Virus record (IMG/VR): IMGVR_UViG_2585427757_000006
Direction: 5' to 3' (one strand)
Origin: a virus
Lineage: Duplodnaviria > Heunggongvirae > Uroviricota > Caudoviricetes
DNA: 64,000 nt
Within the stretch, counting starts at the first letter, position 1. Each line of letters begins with the position of its first letter. Position numbers and translations under genes: made by a program. This document shows, piece by piece, positions 17,329 to 49,986 of this stretch. Below the pieces are notes generated by a model. The model saw nothing but the letters and a program-made list of their open reading frames with translations, did no database searches and was not told the origin of the DNA.

Positions 17329-17383
17329 GACCTGCTTCCGTATATATATATACTAAGATACTTATTATATACGGAAGCAGGTC
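17329..17383. repeat. 55-bp palindromic element (18-bp arms gacctgcttccgtatata) around core taagatacttatt
   Basis: Arms 17329-17346 and 17366-17383 exact reverse complements; related copy at 49930-49986. Confidence 0.8.
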
Positions 17384-17405
17384 ATAATTGTTGATACTAC
17401 CAATA

Positions 17406-18209
17406 CTAGTATCCAAGAAAATCAGTATCTTTCTCTAATCTTATTTTTTCCAGCTTATACGATCCTGGAGGGCACTTCATTTTGTAGATTTCGATACCTG
17501 AATCAAATAGTTGATGAACATAATTTTGAAGTTGACTGCTAGCCTTACAACCTATTGTTATTTCCTTAATTAAGGATTTATCAAATAATTTCACGCCACA
17601 ATTCTCGGTTACGATTCTAACCTCCTCTTCATATTCCCAGACATCGCTTTTATTTAGGCAAAGAGCCGCTGCAATCTCTTTAGCTGAGTCGGTAAAAAAA
17701 TTTACAACCGGAACATCAGAGGAATATTTGACCTCACCGCGAACAAAAAAAACATCATCAAACGCATTTATAAAACCATCATCAAATCCGATGCAAAAAC
17801 CAGAGTGAGAATGCGCATAATGCGACCACATAAGATAATTATCTGGTCTTTTTGTCAAACAAATAACTCCCCGACACTGCAGAAAAGTTGTTCTAATCAT
17901 ATAGTTATCAAAACTGCGACTATGTTCTGTTTGACTCAATAACCAGCGTTCAAATTCATCATTGTGATGATTAGGCCAAAGCTCAAAAAATCTTTTCTTA
18001 ATGGCGTCTATATCAGCATCATAATCAAAATTAACTTTAAACTCGGCAGGATCGTTGAAATCATTCGGACGAGTTGCTCGAATTTTCCCATCTTCTAAGT
18101 AATACTTTAAATACTTTATTGTGTCTTCCGGGACGCTACTTCCAACATATTTGTAAAGCATAAATATACCTTTTAAGAGAAGGCGTCTAATCACGCCTTC
18201 TCTTATCAA
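17406..18209 (-). CDS. DUF2971-like protein (AT-rich accessory gene)
   Basis: 267-aa ORF; motif LMWSHYAHSHSGFCIGF matches remembered DUF2971 signature; AT-rich; true start may be Met17. Confidence 0.5.
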   Translation of the reverse strand: MIREGVIRRLLLKGIFMLYKYVGSSVPEDTIKYLKYYLEDGKIRATRPNDFNDPAEFKVNFDYDADIDAIKKRFFELWPNHHNDEFERWLLSQTEHSRSFDNYMIRTTFLQCRGVICLTKRPDNYLMWSHYAHSHSGFCIGFDDGFINAFDDVFFVRGEVKYSSDVPVVNFFTDSAKEIAAALCLNKSDVWEYEEEVRIVTENCGVKLFDKSLIKEITIGCKASSQLQNYVHQLFDSGIEIYKMKCPPGSYKLEKIRLEKDTDFLGY

Positions 18210-18565
18210 CCTTTCTTCATCAACTCTCGTTTAATTTCATCGGTACGCATCGTGACATCGGCAGCTGTGATTGCCTCGTTAAGTTTCACGATGTCCTCGA
18301 TTTCCTGCGGTGACTTCTCTGCCAGATGGAAAATGGCTGCGCGAATCACGTCAGAACGGGTGAATTTCTCGAAGCGAGGGATGAACTTCATCATCTCCAG
18401 CAGTTCGAAGTATTCGTCCTCCAGTGACATTGTGCGGCTTTTAATTTTCTCTTTGCCACGAGTCGGGCGTCCCTGTGGTCTGACTGGTTGGCGCAAAGGA
18501 GTTGTGTTCTTAGCCGGTGCATCAGGCTCTTTGCGCTTTGCTAGGTCACCCATTTTCATGGACAT
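18206..18565 (-). CDS. ParG-like centromere-binding partition protein (ribbon-helix-helix candidate)
   Basis: 119-aa basic protein immediately downstream of ParA-like ATPase, ATGA-coupled. Confidence 0.5.
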   Translation of the reverse strand: MSMKMGDLAKRKEPDAPAKNTTPLRQPVRPQGRPTRGKEKIKSRTMSLEDEYFELLEMMKFIPRFEKFTRSDVIRAAIFHLAEKSPQEIEDIVKLNEAITAADVTMRTDEIKRELMKKG

Positions 18566-19233
18566 TATTCTTCTTCCTCCAGACTCAACAGATAATCTAC
18601 AAATTCTTCAAACTCGGCTTCCGCCTTTTTGTCGCGCTCGCTACCGGTCATTTCAAAGATAGAACGACCAGACTCTTCCGCATCATCATAGACGTTGCGG
18701 TTATATAGATTGACTGGCGCAGACTCGATTCCAAACGTCTCAACAATCTCTTTAGCCGCCAGAATGCGAGACACTTGTGATGGCAAAGCCGGGCACTGGT
18801 TCATGACCGCGCGGACCTTCACTTTATCGTTTACATTGCGAACATTGTCGATAATAGGATCGATGTCACGCAGAGATTTCAAATCACGACGCTTAGGACG
18901 AAGCGGGATAATGATAACGTCGGCCATCAGCATCGCTTGTCGCTGAATTTCGGAGTCGAAGCCACCAGCATCTACCACTACAAACTCAGCTCTACCCTGA
19001 AGCGATTTTAGGTGCTTAATGATGTCATCCTGAACGTATGCAAAAGGAATCAGCTCAAGGTCTTCGTTCTGTCGACGGTCTTCACACCAGCTCGTTGTCG
19101 TGCGCTGAATATCTATATCGGTAATATAAACCTTCTTCTTCTTTTTGACTTTCAGGCAAACGGCAATTTGCTGGGCAACGGTGGATTTGCCAGGCCCGCC
19201 CTTTGTGCCGCCAACCACAAAGATCTTGGTCAT
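18565..19233 (-). CDS. ParA/ParF-type partition ATPase
   Basis: 222-aa ORF with deviant Walker A VGGTKGGPGKST. Confidence 0.75.
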   Translation of the reverse strand: MTKIFVVGGTKGGPGKSTVAQQIAVCLKVKKKKKVYITDIDIQRTTTSWCEDRRQNEDLELIPFAYVQDDIIKHLKSLQGRAEFVVVDAGGFDSEIQRQAMLMADVIIIPLRPKRRDLKSLRDIDPIIDNVRNVNDKVKVRAVMNQCPALPSQVSRILAAKEIVETFGIESAPVNLYNRNVYDDAEESGRSIFEMTGSERDKKAEAEFEEFVDYLLSLEEEE

Positions 19234-19551
19234 TGGAGAGTTCCCTTTGCGTATATAATTATCGTCTGAAACAACTTGTTTTCTTATATGTGATATAGCC
19301 TAAATGCCTACGGCTGCGGTGTAAAGGTTAAATGGTAGGTTGTGATTAACAATTGGCAAACATAGCTTGTATTTGTCTGTTGAAAAAAGTAACAATGACC
19401 TCTATATTACAAGTACGGTGATATGCCGTACACAATTTGATAATGCACACGTAATGGGCTATAGCCTTTTAAAGTAATTTTTGAGTCGAAAACTCAGTTT
19501 GAACAGAGGAGATTGATGGCCTTCCTACATCACGGCCATCAGGAGGAATAC

Positions 19552-47898: not shown

Positions 47899-47924
47899 TT
47901 GAATAACCTTAGATAATTACTTAC

Positions 47925-49181
47925 CTATCGAGAACCACCAAGAATAACACGGTTTTTGACTGGATACCTACGATGTACTGGATAGCCCAATGCGTCTGCA
48001 CTATGCTCAATGCCACCTGTCTTATCCATATCTCGTGTTCCAGGCTTGTAGATGACTTTTTCCAGTGAATCAATCAAATGCTTGCACTTCGGATCGATAT
48101 ACAGCCGGATATCTCCAGATGCGGACATCAGCATTCGGTTAACAGCATTAACACGATCCGCAATTGGCGGGGGCTTTTTCGAATAATCGACACGTAAGAA
48201 TCCCTTCTCTTTGAATATGTCTACGTCAGACTCCCCACGAGCATGTTGGCGATAAGCACCTGCCGGATCTGGAAATACCGTTACCTGTGATTTCCAGCGC
48301 CAGAAGCGTCTCTCAAGCTCATCACAAACTTCTGCCGTGTTAGAGGAAAAGAGCACCAATTCATCAATTGCCCATAACTCACCATTTGGCTGAGGTTGCA
48401 AAATTACTGAAGACATCGGGTCAATGTTGAAGTCCTGCCCTACCCATATAGGCAACCGAGGGTTGAACTGAAGCGGTTTTACATGCACGTTACGATCGAA
48501 CGGGTAGTAAACGCGCCCGGACATGTTCTCAAAGCTGGCCAGGTACTCCTGAGCGAACGATTTGGGGTCCATATCGTTCTTAGCAGCTTCAATTTCCGCC
48601 GTAGGCACAAACGGAGAATCGGCAGTTACAAACTGCCAGCTCTTCCACTGTCCCTTTCTTTGCAGCTCTACGTTCTGGCCTATAGTCCACAGTTTGTGAA
48701 ATTCCGAGAAGCCTTTTGGCGTACCAATGATCAGTGCACCGCCGCGTGTCGATGAAAGAGTAGGTCGTAACACCTTGTACCAGGTGTCAGCCTTCATATC
48801 CTGAAATTCATCAAGCACTACAAAATGCAACGCTACGCCGCGCAGAGTGTCAGGCTTATCAGCACCTTTGAGGGCGATCTCCGAACCGTTCTTCAACACG
48901 ATTGTCATCGTGGTGTCGTTCTTTTTCCTAACCCACTTACGAGGCAGAACTTCCTGTAGATCGTCCCACAAAATCTGGCGAGCCATCTGGTAAGTAGGAG
49001 CGACATACCAGACCCTTTGCTTTTTTTCCTTTGCCGCCGCACGAATAATAGTGGAGATCGACAACCGGGATTTTCCCCAGCGTCGACCAGCACAAACAAC
49101 TTTAAATCGATGCGGAGACTGGAAGACTTTCATCTGTCCAGAATGCAGTTGCACAAGACTGAGCGAGGACGGGATTGCCAT
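47925..49181 (-). CDS. terminase large subunit
   Basis: 418-aa ORF; Walker A-like VVCAGRRWGKS, Walker B VVLDEF, C-terminal nuclease-like region. Confidence 0.85.
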   Translation of the reverse strand: MAIPSSLSLVQLHSGQMKVFQSPHRFKVVCAGRRWGKSRLSISTIIRAAAKEKKQRVWYVAPTYQMARQILWDDLQEVLPRKWVRKKNDTTMTIVLKNGSEIALKGADKPDTLRGVALHFVVLDEFQDMKADTWYKVLRPTLSSTRGGALIIGTPKGFSEFHKLWTIGQNVELQRKGQWKSWQFVTADSPFVPTAEIEAAKNDMDPKSFAQEYLASFENMSGRVYYPFDRNVHVKPLQFNPRLPIWVGQDFNIDPMSSVILQPQPNGELWAIDELVLFSSNTAEVCDELERRFWRWKSQVTVFPDPAGAYRQHARGESDVDIFKEKGFLRVDYSKKPPPIADRVNAVNRMLMSASGDIRLYIDPKCKHLIDSLEKVIYKPGTRDMDKTGGIEHSADALGYPVHRRYPVKNRVILGGSR

Positions 49182-49813
49182 TATTCGTCCTCCCCTTCAC
49201 TTCCATCATCTGTCGCATCAAATTCGCTTAGAGCTTCTTCTTCCAACGTCTCAAGCAATTCGTCATCGATGATTTCAGGCTCGTCGTCTTCCTGACGTAA
49301 TTTCGCCACCTGGGAAGGCGTAAGCTCACCAAATACCAGGTTCGGAATTTCTTCCTCGTCATTTTCCGCATGATCCATGCCCAATGCTTTGGACGAAACT
49401 TCAAAGCATTTTGCAAGGGTATTACTGGCTCTCTGTAAGCTCTTGAGAGAATCCTCAATCGCCCCTAAAGGCTTACCCTCACGTTTGGCCGTAGTGACTT
49501 CGACCATCACCATCTGCCCCAACGCATACGCCCAGCCGTCATAACGTGTACGACGTTCTTCTATCTTTTCCGCACGGGCTTTAGCGCGAAGCTCTGCGTC
49601 AGATTTAAGAGACTCACGAACCATCTTCCCAACAGAGTCCGCGCCTTTCTCTAATCCTCGCTTTTTGAAATGTCTGGAGAGTGTTTCACGACGAATGCCG
49701 TACTCTTCCTCCAGCTTTGAGAGTGTATATTCGCCTGACGTCCATTTGGCTTCAGCTTCGGCCCACTCCGCTGGTGTCAGGCGAGTTTTTACCTCGTCTT
49801 TTTCGACCGTCAT
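49181..49813 (-). CDS. terminase small subunit candidate
   Basis: 210-aa ORF; N-terminal HTH-like region, acidic C-terminus, stop overlaps large-subunit start. Confidence 0.6.
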   Translation of the reverse strand: MTVEKDEVKTRLTPAEWAEAEAKWTSGEYTLSKLEEEYGIRRETLSRHFKKRGLEKGADSVGKMVRESLKSDAELRAKARAEKIEERRTRYDGWAYALGQMVMVEVTTAKREGKPLGAIEDSLKSLQRASNTLAKCFEVSSKALGMDHAENDEEEIPNLVFGELTPSQVAKLRQEDDEPEIIDDELLETLEEEALSEFDATDDGSEGEDE

Positions 49814-49929
49814 AGATCCCTCTAAAACACACAGAGCGCGTCCATGCGCTCTAAAACAACTTGTTTACTGCATCTGCTAACCAACTTGTTTTCTGGGGTG
49901 TTTAATTAGGTCTGGCATGTCTTACGAAG

Positions 49930-49986
49930 CCTGCTTCCGTATATATTTAATAAGTTACTTATTATTTATATATACAGATGCAGGTC
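49930..49986. repeat. 57-bp imperfect palindromic element related to 17329-17383, core taagttacttatt
   Basis: Left arm cctgcttccgtatatat, right arm tatatacagatgcaggtc (2 mismatches to the reverse complement of the 17329-17383 left arm). Confidence 0.7.

What the first reader, a model, noticed from the sequence alone, without database searches (positions are those of the whole stretch)
17329..49986. Two copies of a ~55-bp extended palindrome, one upstream of the replication cluster and one upstream of the terminase/structural operon
Element 17329-17383 has perfect 18-bp arms and element 49930-49986 has two mismatches. Both share the arm cctgcttccgtatata and a central motif-I-like core (taagNtacttatt). 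Each sits at the head of a major minus-strand operon. They could be master operators, pac/cos-associated sites or recombination sites.
Basis: seen in the sequence. Interest (0 to 1): 0.6.

Follow-up and report, generated by a model that had tools for sequence, protein, structure and literature searches.

The report
Three-copy boundary palindrome of SSU5-like phage-plasmids
The two palindromes are real and belong to a conserved, apparently undescribed three-copy family that marks the borders between the three big gene modules of SSU5-like phage-plasmids. They most likely act as hairpin barriers and control sites for transcription rather than as DNA-packaging or recombination sites.

Summary
Both palindromes exist as described: 17329-17383 has perfect 18-bp arms and 49930-49984 has two mismatches. 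This is far beyond chance.

The window is an SSU5-like phage-plasmid, 98% identical to Escherichia phage Cyrano. Complete relatives carry three copies at fixed places:
- A: winged-helix gene p88 | terS
- B: variable upstream genes | p2500-helicase-primase
- C: Dam-like methylase | small ORF

The window holds B and A. About 5% of complete E. coli genomes carry the family, almost only on plasmids.

Each copy is the core of a ~110-bp dyad with outer GGTCTGG/CCAGACC boxes. The next start codon lies ~110-118 bp downstream. Copies within a genome evolve in concert. Distant relatives have unrelated but complementary arms at site A.

Published Cyrano RNA-seq shows transcript levels falling to background across copy B, which carries a U-tract. 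Copy A has none.

Best reading (confidence 0.42): hairpin boundary and control elements that stop read-through into lytic modules, possibly also read by a phage factor. Operator, pac, origin and recombination readings remain less supported rivals. Function is untested experimentally.

The parts
17329..17383 (.).
   Evidence: perfect 18-bp arms. Positional class B, upstream of the p2500-helicase-primase genes.
17319..17328 (-). U/T-tract directly after the hairpin in the direction of transcription (minus strand reads GCAGGUC-UUUUAAAGA)
   Evidence: TCTTTT is conserved in class B. Published RNA-seq shows the transcript falling to background across the homologous spacer in Cyrano.
17307..17316 (-). 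Outer box CCACCAGAAC (minus strand), ~45-49 bp from the palindrome centre
   Evidence: CCAGA[AC]C boxes lie 43-50 bp from the centre in most copies.
17224..17306 (-). Conserved class-B leader. It holds promoter-like hexamers TTCCAA (17287-17282) and TATCAT (17264-17259) with a 17-nt spacer, and a motif-I dyad at 17228-17250 just before the start codon.
   Evidence: Conservation footprint. Hexamers were read from the sequence and fall below the scan's threshold. Motif-I.
16474..17223 (-). p2500 (PHROG 2500, unknown function), first gene downstream of copy B and followed by the DnaB-like helicase
49930..49984 (.).
   Evidence: Positional class A, between p88 and terS.
49997..50006 (.). Upstream outer box (plus strand CTCCCAGACC, minus strand GGTCTGGGAG), ending 2 nt before the p88 stop codon
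   Evidence: it pairs with 49909-49915 in the extended hairpin (-49 kcal/mol, z = -8.3).
49909..49915 (.). Downstream outer box (plus strand GGTCTGG, minus strand CCAGACC)
49853..49895 (-). Two AAACAAGTTGKTT dyads in the terS leader
   Evidence: (family D4), 41, 90: conserved in class A.
49822..49853 (-). Canonical terminator-like hairpin plus T-tract, ~20 nt before the terS start
   Evidence: Conserved, with compensatory changes.
50009..50275 (-). p88, an 88-aa winged-helix DNA-binding protein. It is syntenic with copy A and terS in every lineage examined.
   Evidence: synteny and alignment; AF2 pLDDT 82; Foldseek hits to MarR/MepR with TM 0.7-0.78.
49181..49813 (-). terS-like DNA-binding protein (PHROG 867), first gene downstream of copy A, followed by TerL at 47925-49181

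Best explanation
The two palindromes are copies B and A of a three-member family of ~110-bp dyad-symmetric boundary and control elements. This family separates the three large co-directional gene modules of SSU5-like phage-plasmids: packaging/structure/lysis plus par, replication/nucleotide metabolism, and accessory/regulatory.

Proposed mechanism: a transcript that enters an element from the upstream module contains both arms. It folds into a long hairpin with a GC-rich base and an AT-rich top. Where a U-tract follows (copies B and C), the transcript terminates. This keeps the lytic module silent while plasmid-maintenance genes are expressed in the lysogen. Each downstream module is then driven from its own promoter and operator region in the conserved ~110-nt leader.

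Copy A has the same hairpin but no U-tract. A separate canonical terminator follows it just before terS. Copy A is therefore inferred to be a pause, processing or recognition site rather than an efficient terminator.

The shared arms, shared CCAGAC boxes and concerted evolution suggest one of two things. Either one phage factor also reads all three sites (p88 is a candidate), or the copies are homogenised by gene conversion.

Shown: anatomy, copy number, positions, conservation, covariation, and the RNA drop at B in a 98%-identical relative. Inferred: termination by the hairpin, the role of C, the role of A, and any trans-acting factor.
For: (1) Three copies at fixed positions occur in SSU5, Cyrano and pNT1F34-108k. 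All but one of the 116 IMG/VR elements (which had no flanking match) fall into classes A, B or C. Every copy is intergenic between co-directional genes.

(2) Cyrano RNA-seq (PMC9928086 table S1): the par operon genes CYRAN_28-30 have 50-89 normalised counts and log2(FPKM+5) up to 10.4. CYRAN_31, directly after copy B, has 6.2 counts and log2 values of 2.3-4.2, which is floor or background. The intervening spacer is 193 bp, and the palindrome is its only strong hairpin.

(3) Copy B reads GACCUGC...GCAGGUC-UUUUAAAG. The T-tract is conserved in classes B and C.

(4) Structure is conserved where sequence is not. Faunimonas, Methylocystis, a Piscirickettsiaceae MAG, L148, Chitinibacter and Acinetobacter carry 100-114-bp palindromes with unrelated arms at the p88|terS position. 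Their RNA folds reach -66 to -68 kcal/mol with z of -9 to -11.

(5) The window's copy B has arms CCG/CGG while Cyrano's has CTG/CAG, a compensated double change. Non-Watson-Crick pairs in classes A and B are mostly G.U on the sense strand, 18 against 2.

(6) The scans find no sigma-70-type promoter inside the elements or within ~150-230 bp of them. Conserved promoter-like hexamers (below the scan threshold) and motif-I lie downstream in the leader.

(7) The family is plasmid-specific: 849 of 851 places in E. coli complete genomes are on plasmids.
Against: Copy A, which is element 2 of the finding and the only position conserved in distant lineages, has no U-tract. The distant A-type palindromes have none either. 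Intrinsic termination therefore cannot be the ancestral or common function.

The loop is 19-36 nt or more, which is atypical for terminators, and the terminator scan did not call the elements.

In class C the mismatches are C.A on the sense strand, 5 against 0.

Near-identity of the arms in three copies across genera, the concerted change of all three centres in one lineage, and the extra CCAGAC boxes are not needed for a plain terminator. They point instead to protein recognition or gene conversion.

The RNA-seq drop is per-gene coverage in one strain. It does not locate the 3' end, and it does not distinguish termination from a protein roadblock or from processing followed by decay.
Confidence: 0.42

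Rival explanations
1. DNA-level master control sites. A phage-encoded DNA-binding protein recognises the arms and the CCAGAC boxes of all three elements. Candidates are the winged-helix protein p88 encoded next to copy A, or the prophage repressor. The protein co-ordinately represses or activates the three module promoters, or acts as a roadblock. This would resemble the dispersed C1 operators of P1 or the KorB operators of RK2.
For: The 16-bp arms are identical in all three copies across Escherichia, Salmonella, Klebsiella, Kluyvera and Yersinia. Outer boxes lie at about +/-47 bp, and there are extra direct CCAGA[AC]C boxes in the leaders. TCTGGGAG occurs only 4-6 times per genome on both strands, and 2-3 of those lie 45-55 bp from a palindrome centre. 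All three copies change in concert in contigs 2880329822 and 2579778564. p88 has a MarR-like winged-helix fold and is syntenic with site A in every lineage. The arms differ between distant lineages, as expected if site and protein co-evolve.
Against: The half-sites are 39 bp apart centre to centre, and each arm is not itself symmetric, which is unusual for a dimeric operator. The scans find no sigma-70-type promoter within or near the palindromes. Morganella and Xenorhabdus keep p88 with the same recognition-helix sequence but lack the arms. Concerted evolution can equally come from gene conversion. The lineage that changed TAAGT to TAAAT in all three centres kept GATAAGTAAGTA in its motif-I site.
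Confidence: 0.25
2. Packaging initiation (pac) site. TerS, with p88 as accessory, assembles on the ~110-bp dyad upstream of terS and TerL cuts in the AT-rich centre. Copies B and C would be extra or vestigial pac sites.
For: The p88 - palindrome - terS - terL order is conserved from Alpha- to Gammaproteobacterial hosts, with lineage-specific arms. The total size of ~105-115 bp suits wrapping by a TerS ring; this is my own background knowledge, not a test. The SSU5 record sequenced from virions is opened inside copy A. The centre of copy A is not called flipped in any of 56 cases (1 ambiguous), against 2 of 36 for B and 1 of 23 for C. TerL is of the T4/P22 type by Pfam, Terminase_6N and Terminase_3.
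Against: There are three copies per genome with equally well-conserved arms. The SSU5 junction has no missing or duplicated bases compared with 17 identical class-A elements. The break is 8 nt off-centre. Short-read contigs also break at these repeats. Cyrano was oriented after SSU5, and other phage records do not start at copy A. Nothing links B or C to packaging.
Confidence: 0.12
3. Lytic replication origins or cruciform-priming sites. GC-clamped arms around a ~35-bp, almost pure AT unwinding centre would serve as multiple origins for the phage's T4-like replication and recombination machinery.
For: The centre is 33-37 bp with 1-2 G/C and is flanked by GC-rich repeats. Copy B sits directly upstream of the helicase and primase genes. 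The genome encodes UvsW/X/Y-, gp32- and gp46/47-like proteins. There are multiple dispersed copies, as in T4 and SPP1; that comparison is my own background knowledge.
Against: There is no direct evidence. The plasmid origin (RepA) is elsewhere, at ~60 kb in Cyrano. An origin would not be expected to keep a fixed position next to terS across the family. This reading does not explain the transcript stop at B.
Confidence: 0.08
4. Site-specific or homologous recombination sites, serving for segment inversion, multimer resolution or module exchange.
For: The two window copies form a 49-nt, 84% inverted repeat 32.6 kb apart (I1). A tyrosine recombinase is encoded at 3537-4640. The spacer between the arms appears flipped in the window/Cyrano lineage (B) and in L037 (C). 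A and B are 100% identical in at least 7 genomes, which implies exchange between copies.
Against: The arm and spacer geometry does not fit lox, dif or cix-type sites. No inversion or deletion between copies is seen in 11-12 related phage records, where both query regions always match on the same strand. Three sites in one replicon would be hazardous for a resolution system.
Confidence: 0.04

Closest known systems
Rho-independent (often bidirectional) terminators at phage operon boundaries
   Same: A GC-rich stem base is followed by a U-tract (copies B and C). The elements lie between co-directional operons. Transcript levels collapse across copy B in lysogens.
   Different: The stem-loop is far longer, with a 19-36-nt AT-rich centre. 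The sequence is nearly identical at three loci and across genera. Copy A and all distant homologues lack the U-tract. Extra flanking boxes are present.
Conserved RNase III processing hairpins of phage T7 and the lambda sib/tI retroregulator (recalled from background knowledge, not tested)
   Same: Several related long hairpins sit in intergenic regions of one phage genome, and the stems are 20 bp or longer.
   Different: There is no cleavage evidence, no characteristic internal-loop architecture was tested, and there are only three copies.
Dispersed operators of a plasmid-prophage master regulator: P1 C1 operators, RK2 KorB OB sites (recalled from background knowledge)
   Same: A few identical dyad sites are scattered over a ~100-kb replicon at heads of operons, and a DNA-binding protein gene lies adjacent to one of them.
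   Different: The half-sites are 39 bp apart. No promoter overlaps them. No cognate protein has been shown.
Dispersed centromere sites of phage-plasmid N15 (recalled from background knowledge)
   Same: Palindromes are dispersed around a phage-plasmid, including in the late-gene region. Copy B is 1.2 kb downstream of parA in this window.
   Different: In relatives, copy B stays with the downstream gene while the par-side neighbours vary. ParA here is a small type Ib-like protein whose 119-aa partner gives only a weak, below-threshold RHH-family hit. No ParB-parS relationship has been shown.
pac sites of headful phages such as P1 and SPP1 (recalled from background knowledge)
   Same: A ~100-bp site with repeated boxes flanks an AT-rich centre and lies directly upstream of terS (copy A).
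   Different: There are three copies per genome, and no end-mapping evidence exists.

Membership tests
Intrinsic (Rho-independent) terminator | Stable GC-rich stem-loop in the transcript | tested here: met
   sense-strand RNA of copy B forms an uninterrupted 18-bp stem, plus weaker pairing in the centre, in a fold of -41.6 kcal/mol (z = -5.9). Copy A forms an extended hairpin of -49.2 kcal/mol (z = -8.3).
Intrinsic (Rho-independent) terminator | U-tract immediately 3' of the stem | tested here: inconclusive
   Met for copy B (UCUUUUAAAG) and for class C (CUUUUUAAG). Not met for copy A (CUUCGUAAG) or for the distant A-type palindromes.
Intrinsic (Rho-independent) terminator | Short loop (3-8 nt) | tested here: not met
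   The centre between perfect arms is 19-25 nt and only partly self-paired. The consensus scan did not call either element.
Intrinsic (Rho-independent) terminator | Transcripts end there in vivo | tested here: inconclusive
   Published per-gene RNA-seq in Cyrano shows a drop to background between CYRAN_30 and CYRAN_31. The 3' end itself has not been mapped. There is no contrast measurable at A or C because both sides are near background.
Repressor/activator operator | Dyad symmetry with conserved half-sites | tested here: met
   half-site CCTG[CT][TAG]TC[CT]GTATATA.
Repressor/activator operator | Overlaps or adjoins a promoter | tested here: not met
   No sigma-70-type site within 17100-17500 or 49750-50100. 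Sub-threshold hexamers lie ~55 nt downstream of copy B.
Repressor/activator operator | Bound by a cognate protein | not testable with these tools
   The only result is that the candidate p88 has a winged-helix fold.
pac/cos packaging site | Next to the terminase genes | tested here: inconclusive
   Copy A: yes, in all lineages. Copies B and C: no.
pac/cos packaging site | Virion DNA ends map to the site | not testable with these tools
   The SSU5 record opens inside copy A, but the junction is intact. No read data are available.
pac/cos packaging site | One site per genome | tested here: not met
   Three copies in SSU5, Cyrano and pNT1F34-108k. The median is 3 places per E. coli genome.
Protelomerase target (telRL of N15-type linear plasmid prophages) | Linear replicon with hairpin ends; single perfect palindrome cut at its centre | tested here: not met
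   Related replicons are deposited as circular. There are three copies, and the centre is not palindromic to the middle base pair. A protelomerase gene was not searched for exhaustively.
lox/dif/cix-type recombination site | 11-13-bp inverted arms around a 2-8-bp spacer; rearrangements between sites | tested here: not met
   The arms are 16-18 bp and the spacer 19-25 bp. No inversion between copies is seen in 11-12 related records.
Host-type mobile palindromic repeats (REP/ERIC/MITE) | Many copies in host chromosomes, variable insertion sites | tested here: not met
   849 of 851 places are on plasmids. The chromosomal locus examined is an integrated fragment of the phage-plasmid next to ISEcp1. 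Positions are fixed.
Known RNA families (Rfam 15) | Match at the family's gathering score | tested here: not met
   Only sub-threshold hairpin matches to eukaryotic miRNA models and one Plasmodium sRNA model.

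The most novel reading that the evidence does not exclude
The three elements are dual-mode switches read by one phage factor. In the lysogen their hairpins insulate the lytic modules from plasmid-maintenance transcription. After induction a phage protein (p88, TerS or an unidentified factor) recognises the shared stem and boxes, as RNA or as extruded cruciform DNA. That converts all three boundaries at once, by antitermination (nut/put-like), by activation, or by coupling to packaging at copy A. The ~105-kb genome would then be expressed as one coordinated programme.
Probability: 0.15. Interest if true: 0.65.

Novelty: new variant of a known kind. Interest (0 to 1): 0.45.

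Why it matters
SSU5-like phage-plasmids are common. By TerL they occur in about 1,000 PLSDB plasmids of Klebsiella, Escherichia, Enterobacter, Yersinia and Salmonella. The palindrome family itself is found in 4.8% of complete E. coli genomes. They carry resistance genes, yet how they keep ~100 kb of lytic genes silent while expressing plasmid functions is essentially unstudied. Literature searches for SSU5 or pHCM2 with 'palindrom' or 'inverted repeat' found nothing on this element.

A conserved three-copy boundary element offers several practical handles:
- the module borders are defined
- there is a testable insulator and a candidate regulator (p88)
- a 16-nt signature, CCTGCTTCCGTATATA, marks the enterobacterial branch
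- if a trans-acting factor reads the sites, it would be a simple target for manipulating induction

Tried and rejected
- **T1 similarity.** A BLAST similarity of the AT-rich centre to the left end of phage T1 turned out to be low-complexity AT sequence.
- **T4-type late promoter.** TATAAATA is present in most centres but is not enriched genome-wide: 2-6 per strand against 1.7-7 expected.
- **Phage sigma factor.** The Acinetobacter relative encodes a sigma-70 family protein, but tblastn finds no homologue in Cyrano, SSU5 or the window.
- **GIY-YIG nuclease link.** The gene next to a remnant palindrome in plasmid NZ_CP062888 is not homologous to p2500.
- **p88 paralogues.** p88 shows no similarity to the small ORF after copy C or to p2500.
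- **parS reading.** In relatives, copy B stays with the downstream gene, not with par.
- **Protelomerase and MITE readings.** Both were rejected; see the membership tests.
- **Rfam.** Only spurious miRNA-type hairpin hits were found.
- **Diverged E. coli lineage.** Plasmid pNT1F34-108k was fetched to look for extra copies or different arms. It has the usual three copies with the usual arms.
- **Literature.** Searches on SSU5 packaging and termini returned nothing useful. One bioRxiv preprint (2026) on phage-plasmid heteroresistance was listed but could not be opened.
- **Caveat on ascertainment.** Statements about which arm is perfect, and class counts, are therefore biased.

Full report
**1. 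Observation**

Element 1 (17329-17383) reads GACCTGCTTCCGTATATA - TATATACTAAGATACTTAT - TATATACGGAAGCAGGTC, with perfect 18-bp arms. Element 2 has arms at 49930-49945 and 49969-49984, with mismatches at arm positions 6 and 9. The 16-nt arm with up to 3 mismatches occurs 5 times against 0.41 expected, and no shuffle reaches that number. Four of the five hits are the four arms. As single strands the two elements fold with z-scores of -4.8 to -9.7.

**2. What the window is**

The window is an SSU5-like phage-plasmid. It is 98% identical to Escherichia phage Cyrano (the plasmid prophage pLF82) and close to phages CMS-2020a and PhiR41_1. It is ~80-87% identical to Salmonella phage SSU5 and to Klebsiella phage-plasmids.

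The genes downstream of element 1, on the minus strand, are p2500 (unknown function), a DnaB-like helicase, a primase and a ligase. Those downstream of element 2 are the terS-like protein, TerL, portal and capsid.

**3. A three-copy family at fixed positions**

SSU5, Cyrano and pNT1F34-108k each carry three copies:
- A lies between an 88-aa gene (p88) and terS.
- B lies directly upstream of p2500, helicase and primase. Its upstream neighbours vary.
- C lies between a Dam-like methyltransferase and a small ORF.

The window holds B (element 1) and A (element 2). C would lie outside the window.

An exact-arm scan of IMG/VR returned 120 loci. Almost every arm is part of a palindrome, and there are 41 sequence variants. 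All but one of the 116 paired elements fall into classes A (56), B (36) or C (23); one had no flanking match.

Among 5,426 complete E. coli genomes, 260 carry the family, with a median of 3 places per genome. Of 851 places, 849 are on plasmids and 2 on chromosomes. The chromosomal locus examined is an integrated fragment next to ISEcp1. A Yersinia pestis 108-kb contig and Kluyvera contigs carry copy A unchanged.

**4. Anatomy beyond the 55 bp**

- The half-site consensus is CCTG[CT][TAG]TC[CT]GTATATA.
- In gene orientation, classes A and B keep the downstream arm perfect and vary the upstream one. Class C does the opposite. The exact-arm seeding biases this result.
- The whole centre is a nested near-palindrome around AATAAGT-N-ACTTATT.
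- Outer boxes GGTCTGGGAG and CTCCCAGACC lie ~43-50 bp either side of the centre. Further CCAGA[AC]C boxes lie in the downstream leader.
- In RNA folds the outer boxes extend the hairpin to ~100 nt in copies A and C, at -49 and -42 kcal/mol.
- The next start codon lies 108-118 bp after the right arm in all three classes.
- The leaders are conserved. The B leader has TTCCAA-N17-TAT(C/G)AT followed by a GATAAGTAAGTA..TACCTA dyad (motif-I) just before the Shine-Dalgarno sequence. The A leader has two AAACAAGTTGKTT dyads and a canonical terminator hairpin ~20 nt before terS.
- The scans find no sigma-70-type promoter inside the palindromes or in the ~350-400 bp scanned around each.

**5. Evolution**

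(a) *Compensation.* The window's copy B has arms CCG/CGG. Cyrano's has CTG/CAG.

(b) *Wobble bias.* Non-Watson-Crick pairs in classes A and B are mostly G.U on the sense strand, 18 against 2. In class C they are C.A, 5 against 0.

(c) *Flipped centres.* The spacer between the arms appears inverted relative to the genes in the window/Cyrano lineage (B) and in L037 (C). It is not called inverted in any of the 56 class-A elements, one of which is ambiguous. The scores are modest because the centre is quasi-palindromic.

(d) *Concerted evolution.* A and B are identical 55-mers in at least 7 genomes. In contigs 2880329822 and 2579778564 the recovered copies — all three in the first, A and C in the second — share a lineage-specific centre (TAAAT in place of TAAGT). 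The motif-I site in the B leader of contig 2880329822, the one where it could be checked, keeps GATAAGTAAGTA. The copies are therefore homogenised, by gene conversion or by a dedicated common factor. The centre's likeness to motif-I is not strictly required.

(e) *Deep conservation of place, not sequence.* I searched species-representative genomes with TerL. Relatives in Faunimonas (35-bp arms), Methylocystis (39-bp arms), a Piscirickettsiaceae MAG, contig L148, Chitinibacter and an Acinetobacter baumannii plasmid all carry a 100-114-bp palindrome at this site. Each has an AT-rich centre, lies between the p88 homologue and terS, and has arms unrelated to the enterobacterial ones. Folds reach z = -9 to -11. 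None has a U-tract. Morganella and Xenorhabdus keep p88 but have only weak brackets. In Acinetobacter the arms are single-copy, but the centre matches 20 or more intergenic copies of that lineage's motif-I.

**6. Neighbouring protein**

p88 is predicted with pLDDT 82 as a winged-helix protein. Its best structural matches are MarR/MepR-type regulators with TM 0.7-0.78. Weak sequence hits to MarR, Sta1 and Lrs14 families agree. It is the only DNA-binding gene syntenic with site A everywhere.

**7. Functional data**

The LF82 transcriptomes (PMC9928086, table S1) give the following. ParA, CYRAN_29 and CYRAN_30 have 50, 89 and 55 normalised counts and log2(FPKM+5) up to 10.4. CYRAN_31, just after copy B, has 6.2 counts and log2 values of 2.3-4.2, which is floor or background. 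Transcription of the constitutively expressed par operon therefore stops within the 193-bp spacer that contains copy B. Copy B has the shape of a terminator: GC-rich stem base followed by UUUUAAAG. At A and C both sides are near background, so nothing can be read there.

**8. Interpretation**

I commit to boundary and control elements. A read-through transcript contains both arms, folds, and stops at B and C. This insulates the lytic modules in the lysogen. Each module is then started from its own leader.

This reading explains the positions, the covariation, the U-tracts and the RNA-seq result. It does not explain why copy A and all distant homologues lack a U-tract. It also does not explain why the arms, boxes and even lineage-specific centre changes are shared by the three copies. 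For these reasons I keep confidence at 0.42.

I rank a DNA-level common regulator site second, at 0.25. pac follows at 0.12; it is attractive for A only and is contradicted by the three copies and the intact SSU5 junction. Lytic origin is at 0.08 and recombination sites at 0.04. The readings are not mutually exclusive. A factor-modulated terminator is the most interesting combination.

**9. Comparison and novelty**

By mechanism the elements work most like intrinsic terminators or insulator hairpins. By organisation they resemble dispersed operator sets (P1 C1, RK2 KorB) or the related RNase III hairpins of T7; those comparisons come from my own background knowledge.

They fail at least one defining feature of each family tested (see the membership table):
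- a short loop, and a U-tract for copy A (terminator)
- promoter overlap (operator)
- single copy (pac)
- arm and spacer geometry (recombination sites)
- linear topology (telRL)
- chromosomal spread (REP/MITE)
- Rfam gathering scores

I found no description of the element in the searchable literature. I therefore rate it as a new variant of a known kind, of moderate interest.

Noticed in passing
window 454, 5971, 8443, 11959, 17237, 27512, 34434, 40912, 46403, 53430, 60486: Motif-I dyads GATAAGTA-N2/N6-TACYTATC lie mostly 5-100 nt upstream of start codons, including inside the late operon. There are about 12 per genome in Cyrano and SSU5. A lineage-specific version has 20 or more copies in an Acinetobacter relative. 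GATAAGTAAGCA precedes terS even in an alphaproteobacterial relative. These are probably the operator or promoter element of a conserved phage factor.
   Followed up: partly
window 16440-16476, 19259-19295, 49853-49895 (two copies), 59214-59250, 61365-61401: A 13-bp dyad AAACAAGTTGKTT lies upstream of the helicase gene, upstream of parA, and twice in the terS leader. It looks like a second operator family and is a possible target of the winged-helix protein p88.
   Followed up: no
window 49822-49853 (minus strand): A canonical terminator-like hairpin plus T-tract lies only ~20 nt before the terS start codon and is conserved with compensatory changes. This implies that late-operon expression needs read-through or antitermination.
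   Followed up: partly
window 7082-7159, 7394-7470, 7987-8106; SSU5 42162-42276: A second family of long inverted repeats has arms ACAACGTTGAGG... (19-20 bp) and spacers of 38-82 nt. It lies in and around the tRNA cluster (tRNA-Ser, Thr, Tyr and Asn at 7162-7719, minus strand).
   Followed up: no
window 50009-50275 (minus strand): The 88-aa ORF has no Pfam hit. It is predicted to be a MarR-like winged-helix protein and is syntenic with terS across Alpha-, Beta- and Gammaproteobacterial relatives.
   Followed up: yes
window 18206-19233 (minus strand): ParA is a small, type Ib-like ATPase. The next ORF (119 aa) is annotated as a RelE/ParE toxin in Cyrano but gives a weak ribbon-helix-helix (aCcr1) hit. 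It is more likely the centromere-binding partner.
   Followed up: partly
window 50285-53429 (minus strand): A conserved block of two ParB_N-domain proteins and two ABC-type ATPase-like proteins precedes p88, the palindrome and terS in all lineages, including Acinetobacter. Its function is unknown.
   Followed up: no
L153 40228-40893 (Acinetobacter plasmid NZ_CP116802.1, 90228-90893): The Acinetobacter relative encodes a sigma-70 family sigma factor between the MoxR-like ATPase and DnaE. BLAST finds no homologue in Cyrano, SSU5 or the window.
   Followed up: partly
L129 6001-6053 (E. coli plasmid NZ_CP062888.1): A lone copy of the palindrome survives in a 141-kb unrelated plasmid amid IS3/IS30 debris, next to a GIY-YIG-domain gene that is not homologous to p2500.
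   Followed up: partly
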